Shown here: piece after piece, positions 1,773-11,142 of the stretch
Layout of the letters: each line of letters opens with the position of its first letter
How positions within the stretch are numbered: the first letter of the stretch is position 1
Source of the DNA: a virus
Lineage: Duplodnaviria > Heunggongvirae > Uroviricota > Caudoviricetes
DNA: 15,658 nt
Reading direction: 5' to 3' (one strand)
IMG/VR virus record: IMGVR_UViG_2721755662_000003
The notes under the pieces: model-generated
Databases searched by the model: none
Seen by the model: the letters and a program-made list of their open reading frames with translations, nothing else
Told to the model about the DNA's origin: nothing
Program-made: the position numbers and the translations under genes

Positions 1773-1922
1773 TCACGCTGGCGGCACGCAGCCGCCACAC
1801 ATCAATCATCTGAACACAGAGCTATAACCATGAAGATTGAATATACGCCAGAACGTGGGCGGGGATTCGTTCGCCCTGGTGAAACTGAAAAACAACAAAA
1901 TTGGGGTTTTTCAGGTATAAAA

Positions 1923-1950
1923 AAAGCGGCCCCGAAATGGAGCCGCCTTT
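1923..1950. terminator. GC hairpin (GCGGC-loop-GCCGC) with a 7-T run on the minus strand; probable terminator for the minus-strand small genes
   Basis: aaagcggc cccgaaatgga gccgccttt; A-run on + side gives T-run on minus strand. Confidence 0.4.
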
Positions 1951-2041
1951 CTGAACAGATAACCCGCTGCGCCGTTTGTGTGTGTGATCCCAAACATAAG
2001 CACGGGGATGATAGCCGTTATCAGGCTGGTGGGCAATGCAA

Positions 2042-2230
2042 TCAGTCTGGTTCAGTTCGTTGCCATACCTGCAATGAGCGCTTTTCCCTGTACTCTTTAA
2101 GGAATTGCTCAAGGGCAAAAGCACATGGCGCGAATCTTTCTGATTCATGCTCTATCTTTCTGCGCCGTCTTTTCCGTGCCGGTGATAATGTTTTGGTCAA
2201 TTCTTTATCGGTCATTGTGTTGTCCTGCAT
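2042..2230 (-). CDS. Hypothetical small basic protein (62 aa), in frame with and separated by a single TAA from the upstream RHH-like ORF
   Basis: ORF track; ARKRRRRK basic patch; no recognisable family. Confidence 0.35.
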   Translation of the reverse strand: MQDNTMTDKELTKTLSPARKRRRRKIEHESERFAPCAFALEQFLKEYREKRSLQVWQRTEPD

Positions 2231-2272
2231 AGCAATGCGCCGTAATACCTTACACCACGGCGCTGATGGTGA

Positions 2273-2452
2273 TTACTCTGGTTCTTTGGCCTTGCGCCGC
2301 TGGCGATATTCAACTTCTCGTTTTAATGCCGCAGTAACAAATTGCCCCGTACTTTCGCCAGGCATTTTTACCGCCTCAACATTGTTCATAACTTCATGCG
2401 GAACCCTTGCCGCAACGGTTTGTGATTTTGCGTTTACCGCTTTTGTCGCCAT
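2273..2452 (-). CDS. Small ribbon-helix-helix-like DNA-binding protein (59 aa), candidate island repressor; not in the ORF track because it is under 60 aa
   Basis: Hand translation of minus strand: MATKAVNAKSQTVAARVPHEVMNNVEAVKMPGESTGQFVTAALKREVEYRQRRKAKEPE; beta-strand then two helices pattern typical of RHH; SD GAGGGG 7 nt upstream of ATG; divergent from operator-bearing promoter. Confidence 0.5.
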   Translation of the reverse strand: MATKAVNAKSQTVAARVPHEVMNNVEAVKMPGESTGQFVTAALKREVEYRQRRKAKEPE

Positions 2453-2502
2453 GTGGTGTACCCCTCATAAAAAACAAATGCAGTATGCAGGAAAAAAAAT
2501 AA

Positions 2503-2555
2503 GTGTTCAACACTTGACGTGTTTAACACCTGGGTTTAAATTGGTGTTCAACACC
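2503..2555 (+). promoter_or_regulatory. Early promoter (TTGACG -35 at 2514-2519, 17-bp spacer, TAAATT -10 at 2537-2542) overlapped by three operator dyads GTGTTYAACAC
   Basis: Operators at 2503-2513, 2519-2529, 2544-2554, each GTGTT-N-AACAC; they cover the -35, spacer and start region. Confidence 0.55.
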
Positions 2556-2651
2556 TTGTTGGCGCAAGGTGCAGAAACGACGAAACCCGGCAGTGCGCTA
2601 ACACTAACCGGGCTTCTAACCACCAACGATAGCGAAAGTATCGAGGTAGCT

Positions 2652-2855
2652 ATGAGAAATCATACCACACACCCGCAAGGGCGGGACTCGCACAACCTGA
2701 ATAAATACATCTGGCGTTTTATCGCCCTGAGCACGGCACAACCGCGCGTGATTACCATTGAGGCCACCAGCGAACAGGAAGCACGCCAGCAATCTCCGGC
2801 TGGCTGCGTGATGGTATTCGCTGCCCGTATTCGCCAGGGGTCACATCATGCGTAA
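2652..2855 (+). CDS. Small protein (67 aa), possibly Icd-like/Ash-like family seen in P4-type elements; paralog of 3088-3309
   Basis: RBS gaggt 4 nt upstream of ATG 2652; C-terminal region KYIWRFIALS...IEATSEQEARQQ...VFAARIRQG mirrors second copy. Confidence 0.5.
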   Translation: MRNHTTHPQGRDSHNLNKYIWRFIALSTAQPRVITIEATSEQEARQQSPAGCVMVFAARIRQGSHHA

Positions 2856-2859
2856 AAAC

Positions 2860-3140
2860 CGCTTGCAAAAAATTATCACGGGGCTGTATGCTTCCCCCGT
2901 CGCCCACATGGCGACCGGGTTTGACAGCCTGAATACATCTGGCGGACAGCCGCCCACATCCGATAAGCGGTTTTTTTGTGTCCGTAAACCTACCCATACC
3001 CGCATTATGGCGGGGCGTAACGGGGGAGCCTTTGTGCTCGCTGGTTTCCAGATGACCAGTCTGTCAACCCTGTTACGTCTCGCCACCATGTTTGACAGCG
3101 TAGTAGCGAGACTCCTTAAAATTCATCTGGGAGCCTTTCA
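2860..3140 (+). promoter_or_regulatory. Structured leader between the two paralogous small genes: nested stem-loops, repeated GTTTGACAGC and GCCCACAT motifs, terminator-like GCGG+T7
   Basis: GGCTGT(2872)...CCCGTCGCC cacat GGCGACCGGG...ACAGCC(2930); GGCGG acag CCGCC (2932-2945); aagcgg ttttttt (2956-2967); CTGTCAA(3062)/TTGACAG(3092); GTCTCGC(3077)/GCGAGAC(3107). Confidence 0.35.
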
Positions 3141-3309
3141 CATGGCTGTATCCGCACGCCCTTATTTTGTCTGGCGCTTTATGCAGTGCCTGACAGACAG
3201 CATTGCAATATTCACCGTTACCGCTGCCACTGAGCGCGAAGCACGTGCACAGCTGCCGCACGCACATCTGATTTTTGTCGCCCGTATTCGTCAGGGGGTA
3301 GGCTTATGA
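3088..3309 (+). CDS. Small protein, paralog of 2652-2855 (start uncertain: ATG 3088 or ATG 3142)
   Basis: PYFVWRFMQCL...TVTAATEREARAQL...IFVARIRQG parallels first copy; the N-terminal half of the 153-aa track ORF is probably not coding. Confidence 0.5.
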   Translation: MFDSVVARLLKIHLGAFHMAVSARPYFVWRFMQCLTDSIAIFTVTAATEREARAQLPHAHLIFVARIRQGVGL

Positions 3310-3536
3310 GTCAGGAAATCACACTACAACAGGCAGCAGAACGCGCCCACCAAATCGAAGTTATTTGCGCACTGGCAGAGGATTACCCTGGCATGATGAC
3401 CGACAGCGAATCAGGGGCAATCATCGGCTTACTTAAACGCCTTAGCGGTGAGGTCTGCGTATTCCTGAGCGATGAACAGGAAAGAAGAACGCTTATTTCT
3501 AACGAAAAAAAATGCGGAGGGGTACATGTGCAATAA
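3306..3536 (+). CDS. Hypothetical protein (76 aa), early operon
   Basis: ORF track; start overlaps previous stop (ATGA coupling). Confidence 0.5.
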   Translation: MSQEITLQQAAERAHQIEVICALAEDYPGMMTDSESGAIIGLLKRLSGEVCVFLSDEQERRTLISNEKKCGGVHVQ

Positions 3537-4562: not shown

Positions 4563-4862
4563 ATGAAACTTAAATATTCTGGCTTAACTGCCAGTGGCAA
4601 CACTCACCCTAAATTTACGCGCGGCGATATTTACCGCGACCAGTACGGCGGCACGGTAATGATTAAGGGCGTGGAAGAACGGCGCGTAACCTACCGCCGT
4701 GAAGGTTACGAATATGATTGCGTGATGCCTGTTTATCAGTTCCGGCGTGATTTTTCTCTGGTACAGACCGCGCCGCATAACGTGTCCACCAGCAACGCCA
4801 GGGCACGGGCAAACATCCAGAAGCTGAAAACCATGATTAACGGATTCAGGGGTAAAAAATGA
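4563..4862 (+). CDS. Hypothetical protein (99 aa) immediately upstream of and overlapping primase start
   Basis: ORF track; stop overlaps primase ATG (ATGA). Confidence 0.5.
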   Translation: MKLKYSGLTASGNTHPKFTRGDIYRDQYGGTVMIKGVEERRVTYRREGYEYDCVMPVYQFRRDFSLVQTAPHNVSTSNARARANIQKLKTMINGFRGKK

Positions 4863-6613
4863 AACTGGCACCGAACGTAAAACAGCAGTCACGCGGCATA
4901 AAACACAAAGAAACAGAAGTCATTATTTTTGCGGGTAGTGATGCCTGGTCACACGCAAAACAATGGCAGGAACATGACGCGCGTATGGCCGGAGATAATG
5001 AGCCTCCTGTGTGGCTTGGGGAGCAGCAGTTATCCGAACTGGATAAGCTGCAAATTGTGCCGGAAGGCAGAAAATCCGTGCGCATATTCAGGGCCGGATA
5101 TCTTGCGCCAGTAATGATAAAGGCGATTGGTCAGAAGCTGGCGGCGGCAGGCGTACAGGATGCAAATTTTTACCCTGATGGTATGCACGGTCAGAAGGTG
5201 GAGAACTGGCGCGAATATCTGGCCCGTGAGCGCCAGAATCTTTCTGATGGTCTGGTCATTGAGCTTCCGGTAAAGCAAAAGGCGCAACTTTCGCAGATGG
5301 CGGACAGTGAGCGCGCGCAGCTGCTTGCCGATCGCTTTGATGGCGTTTGCGTACATCCTGAAAGTGAAATCGTTCACGTATGGCGCGGCGGGGTATGGTG
5401 TCCGGTCAGCACAATGGAACTTAGCCGCGAAATGGTGGCGATCTATTCAGAGCACAGGGCCACTTTCAGCAAGCGCGTAATCAATAACGCCGTGGAAGCG
5501 TTAAAAGTTATTGCCGAACCAATGGGCGAGCCGTCCGGCGATTTGTTGCCGTTCGCCAATGGTGCGCTTGACCTGAAAACGGGGGAATTTTCCCCGCACA
5601 CGCCGGAGAACTGGATCACCACGCACAACGGCATTGAGTACACGCCACCAGCACCAGGGGAGAACATCCGCGATAACGCGCCAAACTTTCATAAATGGCT
5701 TGAGCACGCAGCCGGAAAAGACCCGCGCAAGATGATGCGTATATGTGCCGCGCTGTACATGATTATGGCGAACCGGTACGACTGGCAGATGTTTATTGAG
5801 GCCACCGGAGACGGCGGGAGCGGTAAAAGTACATTCACACACATAGCCAGCCTTCTGGCAGGGAAACAGAACACGGTAAGCGCTGAAATGACATCGCTTG
5901 ATGATGCTGGTGGACGTGCGCAGGTTGTCGGGAGTCGTCTTATCGTCCTGGCTGACCAGCCGAAATATACAGGCGAAGGAACGGGCATCAAGAAAATCAC
6001 GGGCGGTGACCCCGTGGAAATTAACCCGAAATACGAAAAGCGTTTCACGGCGGTAATCAGGGCGGTGGTGCTGGCGACCAACAATAACCCGATGATATTC
6101 ACCGAACGGGCCGGAGGTGTGGCACGTCGTCGCGTGATTTTCCGTTTCGACAATATCGTCAGTGAGGCCGAAAAAGACAGGGAGCTACCGGAAAAGATCG
6201 CGGCTGAAATCCCTGTCATTATCCGCCGATTGCTGGCGAACTTTACCGACCCTGAGAAGGCACGGGCTTTACTACTGGAACAGCGTGACGGTGATGAAGC
6301 TCTGGCAATAAAGCAACAGACGGATCCGGTTATTGAGTTTTGCCAGTTCCTGAATTTTCTGGAGGAAGCACGCGGCCTGATGATGGGCGGCGGTGGCGAT
6401 TCAGTGAAGTACACGACCAGAAACAGCCTTTACCGCGTCTATCTGGCGTTTATGGCGTACGCAGGCAGGAGCAAACCGCTAAACGTAAATGACTTTGGCA
6501 AGGCTATGAAGCCAGCCGCGAAAGTTTACGGACATGAATATATTACGCGGAAAGTTAAGGGAGTAACGCAGACTAACGCAATAACAACAGACGAGTGCGA
6601 CGCGTTTTTATAA
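4859..6613 (+). CDS. Replication protein: P4-family primase C-terminal type (D5_N-like region plus SF3 helicase NTPase), 584 aa
   Basis: Walker A GDGGSGKST, Walker-B-like LIVLADQP, D5_N-like region LPFANGALDLKTGEFSPHTPENWITTHNGIEY; followed directly by iteron ori. Confidence 0.85.
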   Translation: MKLAPNVKQQSRGIKHKETEVIIFAGSDAWSHAKQWQEHDARMAGDNEPPVWLGEQQLSELDKLQIVPEGRKSVRIFRAGYLAPVMIKAIGQKLAAAGVQDANFYPDGMHGQKVENWREYLARERQNLSDGLVIELPVKQKAQLSQMADSERAQLLADRFDGVCVHPESEIVHVWRGGVWCPVSTMELSREMVAIYSEHRATFSKRVINNAVEALKVIAEPMGEPSGDLLPFANGALDLKTGEFSPHTPENWITTHNGIEYTPPAPGENIRDNAPNFHKWLEHAAGKDPRKMMRICAALYMIMANRYDWQMFIEATGDGGSGKSTFTHIASLLAGKQNTVSAEMTSLDDAGGRAQVVGSRLIVLADQPKYTGEGTGIKKITGGDPVEINPKYEKRFTAVIRAVVLATNNNPMIFTERAGGVARRRVIFRFDNIVSEAEKDRELPEKIAAEIPVIIRRLLANFTDPEKARALLLEQRDGDEALAIKQQTDPVIEFCQFLNFLEEARGLMMGGGGDSVKYTTRNSLYRVYLAFMAYAGRSKPLNVNDFGKAMKPAAKVYGHEYITRKVKGVTQTNAITTDECDAFL

Positions 6614-8159: not shown

Positions 8160-9317
8160 ATGCCGAGAATAATCGAATTACGCCAGCAGAAAACCGCCAT
8201 TAAAAATCAGATGCGCGACATGCTGGAGAACGCGGAAAAAGAAAACCGCAGTCTTAACGATGCTGAGGGCGCAAAATTTGACGAATTACGCGCTAAAGCT
8301 GAATCCCTCGATAAAGACATTTCCCGCCTTGAAGCCATTGCAGACGAAGAGCGCAGCAAGCCAGGTAAAAGCAGTCAGACCACTGACCCAGCCGAACTAC
8401 GTCACTACATTCTGACAGGTGAAACCCGCGCATTAAGTACAGGCGTTCCCGCTGATGGTGGTTATACCGTTATCCCCGAACTGAACACCGAAATCATGCG
8501 AATGCTGACGGATGAATCCACCATGCGCCGCATCTGTACCGTGAAGAAAATCAGCAGCAACGAGTTTAAGCAGCTTGTTTCCGCTGGCGGTGCGACCGTT
8601 AACCACGGTGAAGAGGGTAAGGCACGCGAACAGACCAGCACCCCGCAGATTAACGAGGTGAGCATTAAGCTGTATCCGGTCTATGCGTACCCGCGCACCA
8701 CGCAGGAAATCGTGGATTTTTCCGATGTGGACATCCTTTCATGGCTGACGGGCGAGATTGGCGACAACTTCACGGAAACCGAAGAAAGCGATCTGGTTGT
8801 GGGCGACGGTGACAAAAAAGCAAAAGGCTTTTTATCCGTACCCCGTGCAGAGAAGAACGACAAAGAGCGTGATTTTGGTACGTTGCAGGTAATTAAACCT
8901 TCCGAATCTCTGGCGTGGACATCTGCGGACCCGCTGATCGACCTGAAATTTGCATTACGTAAAAAATACCGCAAAAACGCGGTCTGGGTGGTTAACTCCA
9001 CGACGGCGGCAAAACTTCAGAAGGTGAAGAACGCGAACGGTGATTACATCTGGCGCGACCGTTTACAGGCGGGTGATCCTGATACGTTACTGGGCCTTCC
9101 GGTCGAATATCTGGAGTTTATGCCGGATAACGTTATTGCCCTGGGTGACTTCAAACGCGGTTACTACATTGTTGATCACGAAACAGGTGTTCGCACCAGA
9201 CCGGACAACCTCACAGAGCCGGGCTTCATCAAAATTTTCACGCAGAAATATTTAGGCGGTGGCGTGGTGGATTCGAACGCGATCAAGATTCTGGAACTGC
9301 CACAGGACGACGATTAA
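8160..9317 (+). CDS. Major capsid protein, HK97 fold, with N-terminal coiled-coil delta (scaffold) domain; 385 aa
   Basis: N-terminal 100 aa charged/helical (delta-domain-like), remainder typical HK97-family MCP; same length as HK97 gp5; prohead protease gene follows. Confidence 0.9.
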   Translation: MPRIIELRQQKTAIKNQMRDMLENAEKENRSLNDAEGAKFDELRAKAESLDKDISRLEAIADEERSKPGKSSQTTDPAELRHYILTGETRALSTGVPADGGYTVIPELNTEIMRMLTDESTMRRICTVKKISSNEFKQLVSAGGATVNHGEEGKAREQTSTPQINEVSIKLYPVYAYPRTTQEIVDFSDVDILSWLTGEIGDNFTETEESDLVVGDGDKKAKGFLSVPRAEKNDKERDFGTLQVIKPSESLAWTSADPLIDLKFALRKKYRKNAVWVVNSTTAAKLQKVKNANGDYIWRDRLQAGDPDTLLGLPVEYLEFMPDNVIALGDFKRGYYIVDHETGVRTRPDNLTEPGFIKIFTQKYLGGGVVDSNAIKILELPQDDD

Positions 9318-9930: not shown

Positions 9931-11142
9931 ATGTGGCCTTTCAGAAGAAAAAAAGAGCAGCGCAGCATGACGCTGGATGAATTTATGGCGCTGGCTGGCA
10001 CATCGAACACGGGGGCGGGTGAGTACGTATCATCGGGGACAGCGGAATCACTGCCCGCCGTCATGAACGCCGTGACGGTCATCTCTGAGGCGGTGGCTAC
10101 CATGCCGTGTTACCTGTACCTGGTACGCAATGAGAAGGGGAAGGAGGCCCGCGAGTGGCTTGATTCTCATCCGGTCGATCACATCCTCAACGAGCGCCCG
10201 AACGCATGGCAAACCCCCTACCAGTTTAAGCGAATGATGATCCGCCACTGCCTGTTAAACGGTAATGCTTATGCGGTGATTCAGTGGGGGCGTGATGGTT
10301 TTCCGGCGGCTTTACATCCTTACCCGCCGCAGTCGGTGAACGTGGAGCAGACAGGCGAACACAACTGGCGCTACTGCATCACTGACGCCTACACCGGAAA
10401 CACCCGCAACTATTTACCGTGGGAAGTACTTCACCTTCGTTACTCCACGGATGACGGCTTTATGGGGCGCTCACCTGTAACCATCTGCCGCGAATCGCTG
10501 GGGCTTGGGCTGGCCCAACAACGCCACGGCGCGAGCGTGATGCGTGATGGCATGATGGCGGCAGGGGTTATCACGTCAGGCGAATGGCTGGACGGCGTGA
10601 AGGGCAAACAGGCATTAGCCGCACTGGAACGCTACAAAGGGGCCAGAAACGCCGGAAAAACGCCCATCCTTGAAGGGGGTATGAGCTATCAGCAGCTGGG
10701 CATGAGTAATCAGGATGCTGAATGGCTGGCCTCCCGTCGCTTCACCATTGAAGACATCGCCCGAATGTTCAACGTCTCGCCGATTTTTTTGCAGGAATAC
10801 AGCAACAGCACCTACAGCAATTTCAGCGAGGCAAGCCGCGCATTTCTCACCATGACGATGCGCCCGTGGCTGGCGAACTTTGAGCAGCAGATAAAAAACG
10901 CCCTGCTGGTGGCCTCGCCTGTACCTGGTATCCGGTATCAGGTGGAGTTTGACAGCGCGGACCTGTTACGGGCCACACCTGGCGAACGCTTTGCCACCTA
11001 TGAGCGCGGCATCAAATCCGGCGTTATGTGTCCGAACGAAGCCCGCGAACGTGAAGGTCTGTCACCGCGTGATGGTGGTGATGAGTTCAGCCAGGCATGG
11101 AAACAGGAAGTAAAAATCAGCGAGGGAGAAAAACCGGAATGA
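9931..11142 (+). CDS. Portal protein, HK97 family (403 aa)
   Basis: Conserved portal segments NGNAYAVIQW, RRFTIEDIARMFNVSPIFL, MRPWLANFEQQI. Confidence 0.9.
   Translation: MWPFRRKKEQRSMTLDEFMALAGTSNTGAGEYVSSGTAESLPAVMNAVTVISEAVATMPCYLYLVRNEKGKEAREWLDSHPVDHILNERPNAWQTPYQFKRMMIRHCLLNGNAYAVIQWGRDGFPAALHPYPPQSVNVEQTGEHNWRYCITDAYTGNTRNYLPWEVLHLRYSTDDGFMGRSPVTICRESLGLGLAQQRHGASVMRDGMMAAGVITSGEWLDGVKGKQALAALERYKGARNAGKTPILEGGMSYQQLGMSNQDAEWLASRRFTIEDIARMFNVSPIFLQEYSNSTYSNFSEASRAFLTMTMRPWLANFEQQIKNALLVASPVPGIRYQVEFDSADLLRATPGERFATYERGIKSGVMCPNEAREREGLSPRDGGDEFSQAWKQEVKISEGEKPE

What the first reader, a model, noticed from the sequence alone, without database searches (positions are those of the whole stretch)
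2860..3140. Structured leader with mutually exclusive stem-loops and a terminator-like element inside the early transcript
Between the paralogs the long track ORF is unconvincing as protein, but the DNA is rich in RNA-level structure: nested stem GGCTGT...CCCGTCGCC-cacat-GGCGACCGGG...ACAGCC, hairpin GGCGG-acag-CCGCC, GCGG followed by T7 (2958-2967), and downstream CTGTCAA/TTGACAG and GTCTCGC/GCGAGAC pairs. GTTTGACAGC occurs twice (2920-2929, 3089-3098) and GCCCACAT twice. P4 controls its early operon by RNA-mediated premature termination (a small CI RNA pairing with repeated target sequences); the repeated complementary segments here could be an analogous attenuation or immunity checkpoint.
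Basis: partly seen in the sequence, partly recalled or inferred. Interest (0 to 1): 0.6.

Follow-up and report, generated by a model that had tools for sequence, protein, structure and literature searches.

The report
Known C4 antisense-RNA immunity module
The flagged stretch is a copy of the small-RNA "immunity" switch already known from phages P1 and P4: a roughly 79-base RNA that pairs with two sites before and two sites after its own gene to keep the early genes of an E. coli phage-satellite island silent.

Summary

- **Rfam matches.** Window 3003-3090 (+) matches C4 antisense RNA (RF01695, 72.6 bits, cut-off 45). Window 2886-2935 matches its a1/b1 target motif (RF03163, 46.8 against 46.7). 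P4's own CI RNA hits the same C4 model.
- **P1 similarity.** The segment is 78% identical and collinear with the P1 immI region: promoter, a1, b1, hairpin, GCGG-U7, C4, a2, b2 with the ribosome site, then an icd-like gene.
- **Covariation.** In 65 distinct related modules I found 16 b-box and 2 a-box specificities. The RNA loop and both of its targets always change together.
- **Terminator.** Blocking b1 in silico switches the fold from hairpin GGCGG/CCGCC to a CCGC/GCGG hairpin ahead of the U-tract. That would be a terminator that depends on the antisense RNA. This step is inferred, not shown.
- **Long ORF.** Its N-terminal 98 residues match no protein family. Even so, the frame is open in all 18 distinct satellite segments and closed in most P1-like phages, as with P4's nested eta/kil genes.
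- **Not supported.** The outer GGCTGT/ACAGCC stem and the GCCCACAT repeat are not conserved.

This is a new member, with its own specificity, of a well-known kind. Interest is low.

The parts
2514..2542 (+). Upstream sigma-70-like promoter TTGACG-17-TAAATT. It is overlapped by three GTGTTYAACAC operator-like palindromes (2503-2556). Proposed regulated promoter, positionally like P4 PLL or P1 P51a, for transcripts that are translated through the RNA module.
   Evidence: the only promoter-like site called in 2250-3400; the repeats. The role is inferred.
2652..2855 (+). icd-like gene 1 (67 aa). Its stop overlaps the start of the long ORF (ATGCGTAA).
   Evidence: NCBIfam NF033153 phage_ICD_like, 69.8 bits. 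RefSeq annotation.
2848..3309 (+). Long ORF of 153 aa, annotated by PGAP as 'Icd-like'. It runs through all the RNA elements and is in frame with icd-like gene 2. It is the counterpart of P4 eta nested over kil.
   Evidence: The Icd domain covers only residues 107-149 and there is no Pfam hit. The frame is open at least 330 nt upstream of the icd ATG in all satellite modules, despite compensating -1/+1 indels. Stops in the frame: 0 in 18 of 18 unique satellite segments, against a mean of 3.3 in P1-like phages. P4 has a 197-aa ORF nested over a 65-aa one.
2863..2892 (+). Internal promoter TTGCAA-18-TATGCT, with a predicted transcription start near 2899. It aligns with P1's annotated promoter P1c4 (former P51b) and is positionally like P4 PLE inside eta.
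   Evidence: Alignment with P1 and P1 annotation. The -10 T/A/T positions are invariant in 65 modules. It matches 8 of 12 consensus positions, so the scan did not list it. The isrK model starts at 2899.
2899..2915 (+). Leader hairpin 1, GUCGCC-CACAU-GGCGAC.
   Evidence: RF03163 and isrK alignments. Compensatory changes relative to the P1 and P4-like clades (helix 1).
2916..2931 (+). Small hairpin CGGG/CCUG presenting target box a1. Box a1 is GGGUUUGACAG at 2917-2927 and is complementary to a' with one bulged U.
   Evidence: 99.6% paired; I2. Duplex energy -15.9 kcal/mol.
2936..2942 (+). Target box b1, CAUCUGG. It forms 7 Watson-Crick pairs with the C4 loop b'. Its last two bases are also the first two bases of hairpin A.
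   Evidence: I10. Duplex energy -10.6 kcal/mol.
2941..2954 (+). Hairpin A, GGCGG-ACAG-CCGCC. Proposed anti-terminator.
   Evidence: 97.8% paired in 65 modules. The closing pair is UA in 37, AU in 12 and GC in 9, tracking the b1 type. Energy -8.1 kcal/mol.
2948..2977 (+). Terminator-like element. The alternative hairpin AGCCGC...GCGGUU (13-nt loop) runs into the U7 run at 2971-2977. It is positionally equivalent to the IsrK terminator and to P4 t1.
   Evidence: isrK model alignment. It becomes the minimum-energy fold when b1 is blocked, in the window, P1, P7, L125 and L028. The core pairs are invariant, so they carry no covariation signal. The canonical terminator scan did not call it.
2973..2990 (+). 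Highly conserved spacer TTTTTGTGTCCGTAAACC between the U-tract and C4. Its function is unknown; it may be the 5' leader of the precursor.
   Evidence: Nearly invariant among the window, P1 and P7. I used it as the search anchor.
3003..3090 (+). C4/CI-type antisense RNA gene. The mature RNA is predicted at about 3009-3087 by alignment with the annotated 77-nt P1 C4. Loop b' is UUUCCAGAUGA at 3045-3055. The single-stranded box a' is CUGUCAACCC at 3061-3070.
   Evidence: RF01695, 72.6 bits, E = 8e-13, full length. z = -6.4. All helices are 100% paired with compensatory changes. P1 annotation.
3088..3099 (+). Target box a2, AUGUUUGACAGC, immediately 3' of C4.
   Evidence: I5. Duplex energy -8.9 kcal/mol. 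Same position as the annotated P1 a2.
3103..3112 (+). Spacer segment GUAGCGAGAC, complementary to the 3' strand of the C4 closing stem (3077-3086). This is a possible alternative helix in the unprocessed transcript.
   Evidence: I7: 10 nt, 90% complementary. Support across clades is partial, with 9-10 bp retained in satellites and 5 bp in P1. The function was not tested.
3123..3135 (+). Target box b2, UCAUCUGGGAGCC. It includes the Shine-Dalgarno sequence GGGAG (3129-3133) of icd-like gene 2.
   Evidence: 13-bp duplex with C4 3043-3055, -22.0 kcal/mol (I4, 78). The cognate match is 7-10 bp in all 65 modules.
3142..3309 (+). icd-like gene 2 (55 aa). It is the counterpart of P1 icd and P4 kil, and the first gene under C4 control. 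The early and replication genes follow, with the primase at 4859-6613.
   Evidence: NF033153, 53.8 bits. P4 Kil and P1 Icd hit the same model. Annotation.

Best explanation
The region is the RNA-based immunity module of an E. coli phage-satellite island. The island has the gene content of a capsid-forming PICI and is inserted in tqsA. The module is homologous to P1/P7 immI (c4-icd) and to P4 seqA-cI-seqC.

Shown here:
- A C4-family RNA gene lies at 3003-3090.
- Its two exposed boxes are complementary to two upstream sites (a1 at 2917-2927, b1 at 2936-2942) and two downstream sites (a2 at 3088-3099, b2 at 3123-3135). The boxes are b' (CCAGAUGA) and a' (CUGUCAACCC).
- b2 covers the ribosome-binding site of the icd-like gene at 3142.
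- All three copies of each box co-vary across relatives.

Inferred by homology and folding:
- A weak internal promoter (2863-2892) makes an untranslated leader starting near 2899.
- Read-through transcripts are processed to a stable C4 RNA of about 79 nt. In P1 and P4 the 5' end is cut by RNase P.
- C4 acts in trans on later transcripts in two ways. (i) Pairing at a1/b1 opens the base of hairpin GGCGG/CCGCC, so that CCGC pairs with the downstream GCGG ahead of U7 and transcription stops before C4. This would autoregulate C4, like P4 t1. (ii) Pairing at a2/b2 hides the Shine-Dalgarno sequence of icd-like gene 2. The untranslated RNA is then terminated, which keeps the toxic Icd/Kil-like protein and the downstream replication genes off.
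- On induction, transcripts from the regulated upstream promoter (2514-2542) are translated from icd-like gene 1 into the overlapping 153-codon ORF. Ribosomes crossing the targets and the terminator make these transcripts insensitive to C4, as described for P4 eta.
For: - Rfam: C4 at 72.6 bits (cut-off 45) and c4-a1b1 at 46.8 bits (cut-off 46.7). P4 CI, P1 c4 and P7 c4 hit the same C4 model at 69-75 bits.
- The region is 78% and 76% identical and collinear with P1 and P7 immI, whose c4, a1, b1, a2, b2, icd and promoters are annotated.
- In 65 unique modules there are 16 b types and 2 a types in 23 combinations. Cognate b1 and b2 always give at least 7 perfect pairs with the loop, and non-cognate pairs give at most 6, mostly 2-5. 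The a boxes are cognate in 65 of 65.
- C4 helices are 100% paired with compensatory changes. The closing pair of hairpin A is UA, AU or GC, following the b1 type.
- Blocking b1 switches the minimum-energy fold to the pre-U-tract hairpin in five variants from four clades.
- The b'-b2 duplex of 13 bp includes GGGAG.
- The icd frame is open upstream in all satellite modules and closed in most P1-like phages. P4 shows the same 197/65-codon nesting.
- Icd-like domains are confirmed for both paralogs, for P4 Kil and for P1 Icd.
- Literature: IsrK and C4 are the homologues of P4 seqA and CI (PMC3632133). The IsrK terminator is leaky and a processed downstream RNA exists (PMC4825925). C4 and isrK Rfam hits are reported in Gram-negative PICIs, with a summary of the P4 eta/kil mechanism (PMC10111431).
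Against: - There are no expression data. The promoter, the transcription start, the processing and the termination are all inferred.
- The internal promoter matches only 8 of 12 consensus positions and the promoter scan did not call it.
- The terminator hairpin is weak (-6.0 kcal/mol, 13-nt loop) and the terminator scan did not call it. Its core pairs never vary, so covariation can neither support nor refute it.
- The c4-a1b1 score is only 0.1 bit over its threshold, and isrK is below threshold (35.2 against 50).
- The downstream genes are not ant, so the regulated output differs from P1.
- The related sequences are close (two or three clades), so the count of independent evolutionary events is smaller than the count of sequences.
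- The P4 t1 and RNase P facts come from memory. The primary papers could not be retrieved.
Confidence: 0.85

Rival explanations
1. IsrK-type activator. The short leader RNA (about 2899-2977, ending at U7) is the main trans-acting product. It pairs with the C4 region of read-through transcripts, or sponges C4. This opens the ribosome site and activates translation of the downstream gene, as shown for Gifsy-1 IsrK.
For: The isrK model aligns over 2899-2977, including the terminator. PMC4825925 shows that short IsrK binds the long isoform and switches on orf45/anrP translation. The a1/b1 boxes are necessarily complementary to C4, so a free leader could titrate it.
Against: The isrK score is below threshold (35.2 against 50). 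The module is much closer to P1 c4 (78% identity), where C4 is the repressor. This reading complements C4 repression rather than replacing it. It does not explain why a2/b2 co-vary and why b2 overlaps the Shine-Dalgarno sequence.
Confidence: 0.15
2. Addiction module of the type I toxin-antitoxin kind. The main job of C4 is to keep the cell-division inhibitor Icd/Kil-like protein untranslated, which stabilises the island, rather than to control island replication or immunity.
For: The gene directly under b2 control carries the Icd-like domain shared with P1 Icd and P4 Kil. From my own knowledge, both of those are toxic when expressed. C4 occludes its Shine-Dalgarno sequence.
Against: The icd-like gene heads an operon that runs on to the primase and other early genes. 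In P1 and P4 the same arrangement governs downstream gene expression by polarity. A second icd-like gene (2652-2855) lies outside C4 control.
Confidence: 0.1
3. Plain protein-coding sequence. The 153-aa ORF, as annotated in RefSeq, is the functional product, and the RNA structures are incidental.
For: PGAP annotates 2848-3309 as a single CDS. The frame is open in all satellite relatives.
Against: Only residues 107-149 match any protein family. The N-terminal part changes its amino acids wholesale wherever the a/b boxes change, and it tolerates internal -1/+1 frame excursions. Two Rfam models and strong RNA covariation explain the conservation.
Confidence: 0.04

Closest known systems
Phage P1/P7 immI: c4 antisense RNA with targets a1, b1, a2, b2 upstream of icd-ant
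   Same: It is 76-78% identical at DNA level and collinear: promoter (P51b position), hairpin, a1, b1, hairpin A, GCGG-U run, conserved spacer, C4, a2, b2 over the Shine-Dalgarno sequence, then an icd-like gene. It falls in the same Rfam families. The a box is the same as in P1 (UUGACAG).
   Different: The b specificity is different: CAUCUGG here, UUAGUG in P1 and AUUGUG in P7. There is no ant gene downstream; the satellite's early and replication genes follow instead. No C1 operator was identified. A second icd-like gene lies upstream. The frame through the module is open here and closed in most P1-like phages. The element is a chromosomal satellite island, not a plasmid prophage.
Satellite phage P4 immunity: seqA - CI RNA (seqB) - seqC, terminators t1, t4 and timm, nested eta/kil genes
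   Same: CI RNA belongs to the same Rfam C4 family (74.9 bits), and seqA matches isrK and c4-a1b1. Kil is an Icd-like protein. A long ORF is nested in frame over the kil-like gene and spans the RNA elements. A U-run terminator sits between the first target and the RNA gene. The module heads an operon that ends in a primase.
   Different: The sequence is much more diverged than from P1. P4 has an insertion of about 75 nt before cI and a canonical strong t1 hairpin without the hairpin-A competitor. The island carries its own capsid, portal and terminase genes instead of sid/psu/delta.
Salmonella Gifsy-1 IsrK / STnc1160 (orf45) / anrP locus
   Same: A short leader RNA carries a1/b1-like hairpins and a leaky terminator. 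Read-through produces a processed C4-like RNA and the downstream gene (PMC4825925). The isrK model aligns over 2899-2977.
   Different: The score is below the isrK threshold. In Gifsy-1 the short RNA was shown to activate translation, and the downstream gene is an anti-repressor.

Membership tests
Rfam RF01695 C4 antisense RNA (P1 c4 / P4 CI) | Full-length match to the covariance model above the curated gathering score | tested here: met
   72.6 bits against a cut-off of 45, E = 8e-13, model positions 1-87 of 87, window 3003-3090 (+).
Rfam RF01695 C4 antisense RNA (P1 c4 / P4 CI) | Long closing stem enclosing two hairpins, supported by compensatory changes | tested here: met
   The minimum-energy fold equals the model structure, z = -6.4. 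Helices 4-5 are 100% paired in 65 modules, with AU-to-GC and GC-to-AU double changes.
Rfam RF01695 C4 antisense RNA (P1 c4 / P4 CI) | Two exposed boxes (a', b'), each complementary to one site upstream and one site downstream of the RNA gene | tested here: met
   a' 3061-3070 pairs with a1 at 2917-2927 and a2 at 3090-3098. b' 3048-3055 pairs with b1 at 2936-2942 and b2 at 3123-3130. Cognate-only complementarity holds in 65 of 65 modules.
Rfam RF01695 C4 antisense RNA (P1 c4 / P4 CI) | Stable RNA of about 77 nt processed from a longer transcript (5' end cut by RNase P) and acting in trans as a repressor | not testable with these tools
   No expression data are available. The ends are predicted only by alignment with the annotated P1 C4.
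Rfam RF03163 c4-a1b1 target motif | Match above the gathering score: hairpin followed by a small hairpin presenting the a1 box | tested here: met
   46.8 bits against 46.7, which is borderline. It is backed by 78% DNA identity to the annotated P1 a1/b1 region and 99.6% pairing of helix 2.
Rfam RF01394 isrK (P4 seqA-type leader sRNA with terminator) | Match above the gathering score, including a Rho-independent terminator | tested here: not met
   35.2 bits against 50. The terminator scan finds no canonical terminator. P4's own leader passes at 60.8 bits. The architecture is similar, but I do not claim membership.
P1-type immI operon (c4-icd-ant) | An icd gene immediately downstream, with b2 over its ribosome-binding site | tested here: met
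   NF033153 phage_ICD_like, 53.8 bits, for 3142-3306. GGGAG at 3129-3133 lies inside the b2 duplex.
P1-type immI operon (c4-icd-ant) | ant1/ant2 anti-repressor translationally coupled to icd, and a C1 operator at the promoter | tested here: not met
   The downstream CDSs are small hypothetical proteins followed by a primase, with no Pfam hits. None is annotated as an anti-repressor. No dedicated Ant search was run. The upstream operator-like repeats (GTGTTYAACAC) were not compared with the P1 C1 operator.
P4-type immunity with nested eta/kil | A long ORF in frame with, and containing, the kil/icd-like gene. It starts upstream of the internal promoter and spans the RNA targets. | tested here: met
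   ORF 2848-3309 starts 15 nt before the -35 box. The frame is open in every satellite module. There are no stops in 18 of 18 unique 294-nt satellite segments. P4 has 197 codons nested over 65.
P4-type immunity with nested eta/kil | An antisense-RNA-dependent terminator (t1) between the first target and the RNA gene | tested here: inconclusive
   Constraint folding predicts the switch in five variants. The hairpin is weak, its pairs are invariant, and there are no transcript data.
P4-type immunity with nested eta/kil | Constitutive internal promoter plus a regulated upstream promoter whose transcripts escape immunity through translation | tested here: inconclusive
   Candidate promoters lie at 2863-2892 (by homology to P1 P51b) and at 2514-2542. 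Their activity and regulation cannot be tested here.
Capsid-forming PICI (context of the module) | An island with integrase, AlpA-like HTH protein and primase, plus its own capsid, protease, portal, head-tail and terminase genes but no tail genes | tested here: met
   RefSeq annotation of the identical locus in FORC_069, inserted in tqsA. Met by gene content only. Induction and packaging were not tested.

The most novel reading that the evidence does not exclude
In satellites (capsid-forming PICIs and P4-like elements) the C4 module may be a three-layer switch whose parts are jointly constrained.

- A combinatorial two-box address code sets mutually orthogonal immunities. At least 16 b types and 2 a types are seen, with no b type shared between the P1-like, island and P4-like lineages.
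- The last bases of b1 double as the base of an anti-terminator hairpin. Antisense pairing would therefore create the terminator directly. The closing pair tracks the b type.
- An open reading frame is kept through the whole RNA module by compensating indels. It would serve only so that ribosomes coming from an inducible upstream promoter can override the RNA immunity.

None of these points has been described for capsid-forming PICIs.
Probability: 0.4. Interest if true: 0.4.

Novelty: new member of a known kind. Interest (0 to 1): 0.25.

Why it matters
- **Annotation.** RefSeq labels 2848-3309 as one 153-aa 'Icd-like' protein and lists no RNA gene. A C4 RNA, four target sites and a 55-aa icd/kil-like gene actually occupy that stretch.
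- **Biology.** This family of capsid-forming islands seems to use P1/P4-type RNA immunity for its early operon. The cf-PICI paper I checked does not mention it. A PICI survey only notes C4 and isrK Rfam hits in Gram-negative PICIs in passing (PMC10111431).
- **Specificity catalogue.** The co-varying box types give a ready-made set of predicted orthogonal antisense/target pairs. They also predict which resident elements should be cross-immune.
- **Limits.** None of this changes how the system is understood to work.

Tried and rejected
1. **Third C4 target in the portal gene.** GTTTGACAGC recurs at 10947, with CACCTGG 16 nt downstream. Islands L086 and L089 carry the other a type (UUAGCAG) but keep GTTTGACAGC there. 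I treat it as chance within coding sequence.
2. **Outer nested stem GGCTGT/ACAGCC.** It pairs in 51% of cells, occurs only in the island clade, shows no covariation, and its 5' arm abuts the -10 box. Not a conserved structure.
3. **GCCCACAT repeat.** The second copy changes to CTTACAT or CCCATAT in close relatives. Not a feature.
4. **A second, degenerate C4 module under the upstream 'pseudo Icd-like' CDS (1830-2277).** There is no C4, a1b1 or isrK hit even at E = 1, and no protein similarity apart from icd-like gene 1 itself.
5. **An ORF starting at the AUG inside C4 (3007), by analogy with IsrK orf45.** It is closed after 14-41 codons in most P1-like modules and after 29 codons in one island type. 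What is conserved is the icd frame, not that start.
6. **Whole-molecule RNAduplex of C4 against its flanks.** This ignores intramolecular structure, so I replaced it with box-level duplexes.
7. **Long-range 11-nt inverted repeat 2854-2864 / 2965-2975 as an anti-terminator for long transcripts.** The upstream arm is altered in L018. Left unresolved.
8. **Pfam scan of ten neighbouring ORFs.** Nothing was found.
9. **Primary P4 papers.** Briani 2000, Sabbattini 1995 and Forti 1999 could not be retrieved. What I say about t1 and RNase P comes from memory. What I say about the eta/kil mechanism rests on the summary in PMC10111431.
Full report
**What is in the sequence.** GTTTGACAGC is at 2919-2928 and 3090-3099. 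GCGG followed by T7 is at 2967-2977, not 2958-2967. The 10-mer occurs three times in the window against 0.02 expected. CATCTGG at 2936-2942 and 3124-3130 is complementary to CCAGATG at 3048-3054. The a-type box GGTTTGACAGCCTG is complementary to CAGTCTGTCAACCC at 3057-3070. A 23-nt inverted repeat at 3003-3025 / 3068-3090 closes a compact RNA.

**Identification.** A scan against Rfam at curated thresholds gives two hits.
- C4 antisense RNA (RF01695) lies at 3003-3090 (+), at 72.6 bits against a cut-off of 45, full length.
- Its target motif c4-a1b1 (RF03163) lies at 2886-2935, at 46.8 against 46.7.
- The isrK model (RF01394) aligns over 2899-2977, including the GCGG-U7 element, but stays below threshold (35.2 against 50).
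- The 79-nt core 3009-3087 folds into the family structure at -45.9 kcal/mol, z = -6.4.

BLAST against phage genomes shows that window 2911-3100 is 78% identical to the P1 c4 region and 76% identical to P7. Aligned against the annotated P1 record, the module is collinear element by element. The order is:
1. the promoter at the P51b position (window TTGCAA-18-TATGCT, 2863-2892);
2. a hairpin;
3. a1;
4. b1;
5. a GCGG-ACAR-CCGC hairpin;
6. GCGG followed by a U run;
7. an almost invariant spacer, TTTTTGTGTCCGTAAACC;
8. C4;
9. a2;
10. b2 abutting the Shine-Dalgarno sequence;
11. an icd-like gene.

In P1 nomenclature the UUUGACAG box is 'a' and the CAUCUGG box is 'b'.

P4's CI RNA scores 74.9 bits on the same C4 model. 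The P4 seqA leader matches isrK (60.8 bits) and c4-a1b1 (44.1 bits). This equivalence is already in the literature:
- IsrK and C4 are equated with seqA and CI (PMC3632133).
- The c4 and c4-a1b1 motifs were described in PMC2864571.
- C4 and isrK hits are noted in Gram-negative PICIs (PMC10111431).

**Context.** The window is 100% identical to a chromosomal island inserted in tqsA in E. coli FORC_069 and other strains. Its genes are an integrase, an AlpA-like HTH protein, a divergent YlcI/YnfO gene, two icd-like genes, small ORFs, a primase, SSB, PerC, and then capsid, protease, portal, head-tail, HNH and terminase genes. That is the gene content of a capsid-forming PICI. RefSeq annotates 2848-3309 as one 153-aa 'Icd-like' CDS and lists no RNA gene. 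The Icd-like domain (NF033153) covers only residues 107-149 of that ORF. The same model matches the upstream paralog (2652-2855), P4 Kil and P1 Icd.

**Comparative test of the pairing.** I anchored on the conserved spacer and collected 120 IMG/VR loci. To these I added four P4-like E. coli satellites that carry the same module. This gave 65 distinct modules in three lineages: P1-like plasmid prophages, the island clade of the window, and P4-like satellites.
- There are 16 different b loops and 2 a boxes, in 23 combinations.
- In every module the cognate b1 and b2 form at least 7 perfect Watson-Crick pairs with the loop. Non-cognate combinations give at most 6, mostly 2-5.
- Both a targets match a' in 65 of 65 modules.
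- The window carries b = CAUCUGG and a = UUGACAG. No b type is shared between lineages.

This three-site co-variation is the strongest evidence that the RNA pairs with both target sets here. The intramolecular helices of C4 are 100% paired with compensatory double changes.

**The terminator-like element and the 'mutually exclusive' hairpins.** Hairpin A (GGCGG/CCGCC, 2941-2954) is 97.8% paired. Its closing pair is UA, AU or GC depending on the b type, because its 5' base is the penultimate base of b1. The same CCGC can instead pair with GCGG at 2967-2970, directly ahead of U7.
- In the free leader the minimum-energy fold contains hairpin A (-8.1 kcal/mol).
- When b1 is made unavailable, as it would be when C4 is bound, the fold switches to AGCCGC...GCGGUU followed by the U run (-6.0 kcal/mol).
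- The same switch is predicted for P1, P7, a P4-like satellite and another island type.

This fits a terminator that depends on the antisense RNA and lies upstream of the RNA gene. From memory (Briani et al. 2000, not retrievable), P4's t1 terminator has that property and autoregulates CI.

There are caveats. The hairpin is weak and has a 13-nt loop. The terminator scan does not call it. Its core pairs never vary, so there is no covariation evidence either way.

Downstream, the b'-b2 duplex can extend to 13 bp (-22 kcal/mol) and swallows GGGAG at 3129-3133, 8 nt before the ATG at 3142. This is the P1 mechanism of translational repression of icd.

**The long ORF.** Its first 98 codons match no protein family. 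Their amino acids change wherever the boxes change. An ORF counted from the AUG inside C4 is closed in most P1-like modules and in one island type.

The frame that contains the icd-like gene behaves differently.
- It is open for at least 330 nt upstream in every satellite module, with a start codon at -294 (island clade) or -354 (P4-like).
- This holds even for a box type that carries a -1 indel in b1 and a +1 indel in b'.
- Stops in that frame number 0 in 18 of 18 unique satellite segments. The other two frames average 5.3 and 6.7 stops. The same frame in P1-like phages averages 3.3 stops and is open in only 3 of 39.
- P4 itself has a 197-codon ORF nested over the 65-codon kil.

According to the summary of Forti et al. 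1999 in PMC10111431, translation of P4 eta from the upstream late promoter prevents immunity-specific termination. Here the 153-codon ORF starts 15 nt upstream of the internal promoter and overlaps the stop of icd-like gene 1 (ATGCGTAA). Only transcripts from the upstream promoter could be translated through the targets. That promoter lies at 2514-2542 and is overlapped by three GTGTTYAACAC palindromes.

**What is not supported.**
- The outer stem GGCTGT/ACAGCC pairs in only 51% of cells and only in one clade.
- The GCCCACAT repeat is not conserved.
- The third GTTTGACAGC, in the portal gene, does not follow the a type of its island.
- The GTCTCGC/GCGAGAC complementarity is retained at 9-10 bp in satellites and 5 bp in P1-like phages, with partial compensation. 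It may be an alternative helix of the unprocessed transcript, but I could not establish this.

**Mechanism, with status.**

Shown:
- family membership;
- collinearity with P1 immI;
- exposed boxes complementary to four sites;
- b2 lying over the Shine-Dalgarno sequence;
- co-variation of the boxes;
- conserved open frame in satellites.

Inferred:
- the internal promoter and a transcription start near 2899;
- processing to an RNA of about 79 nt;
- C4-induced termination at about 2977;
- translational repression of icd-like gene 2, with polarity on the early and replication genes;
- override by translation from the upstream promoter on induction.

Rivals: an IsrK-like activating role for the short leader (PMC4825925), which may coexist with repression; a toxin-antitoxin-like role; and a purely protein-coding reading.

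**Verdict.** This is a correct and well-observed finding of an already known kind of regulator. It is a new member, with its own a/b specificity, of the C4/CI antisense immunity family, sitting in a capsid-forming PICI where RefSeq annotates only a protein. It is widespread: 705 of 5426 complete E. coli genomes have a relative of the 281-nt segment, mostly on P1-like plasmids. Interest is low. Its value lies in correcting the annotation and in a possible catalogue of orthogonal specificities.

Noticed in passing
window 2503-2556: Three copies of the palindrome GTGTTYAACAC (2503-2515, 2519-2531, 2544-2556) overlap the promoter-like site TTGACG-17-TAAATT (2514-2542). They lie in the divergent region between the YlcI/YnfO gene (-) and icd-like gene 1 (+). 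They look like operators for an unidentified repressor.
   Followed up: partly
window 2579-2651 (- strand): A sub-threshold Rfam match to the SymR antitoxin RNA (33.3 bits, cut-off 61, E about 4e-4). It is antisense to the 5' UTR and ribosome site of icd-like gene 1. It may be a second antisense RNA or may be chance.
   Followed up: no
window 1822-2277: RefSeq calls a 'pseudo Icd-like' CDS at 1830-2277 (+), but no Icd similarity lies there. On the minus strand an unannotated 108-aa ORF (2148 to 1822) ends at a strong hairpin plus T7 (about 1918-1950), downstream of the YlcI/YnfO gene. This is probably a misannotated leftward operon.
   Followed up: partly
window 10947-10956 (portal gene): A third exact copy of GTTTGACAGC, with a near-b box CACCTGG 16 nt downstream. 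Islands with the other a type keep the same sequence, so it is not a co-varying C4 target.
   Followed up: yes
window 2854-2864 and 2965-2975: A perfect 11-nt inverted repeat, AAAAACCGCTT / AAGCGGTTTTT. The upstream arm lies before the internal transcription start. Only long transcripts could use it to sequester the 3' half of the terminator. The arm is altered in relative L018.
   Followed up: partly
window 3024-3033 and 3129-3138: GGGAGCCTTT occurs both in hairpin 1 of C4 and at the Shine-Dalgarno region of icd-like gene 2. Shorter versions of this identity recur in the P1 and P4-like clades. The meaning is unknown.
   Followed up: no
L114 (IMG/VR locus), module region: It has an island-type a1/b1 leader and terminator, but the sequence diverges inside the C4 gene. 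The immunity module looks disrupted or recombinant.
   Followed up: no
L124 (P4, NC_001609) 8168-8584: The reference P4 record still annotates a 137-aa 'cI gene product' CDS over the CI RNA. The same kind of ORF-over-RNA annotation recurs in RefSeq E. coli islands, as 153- to 175-aa 'Icd-like' proteins.
   Followed up: partly
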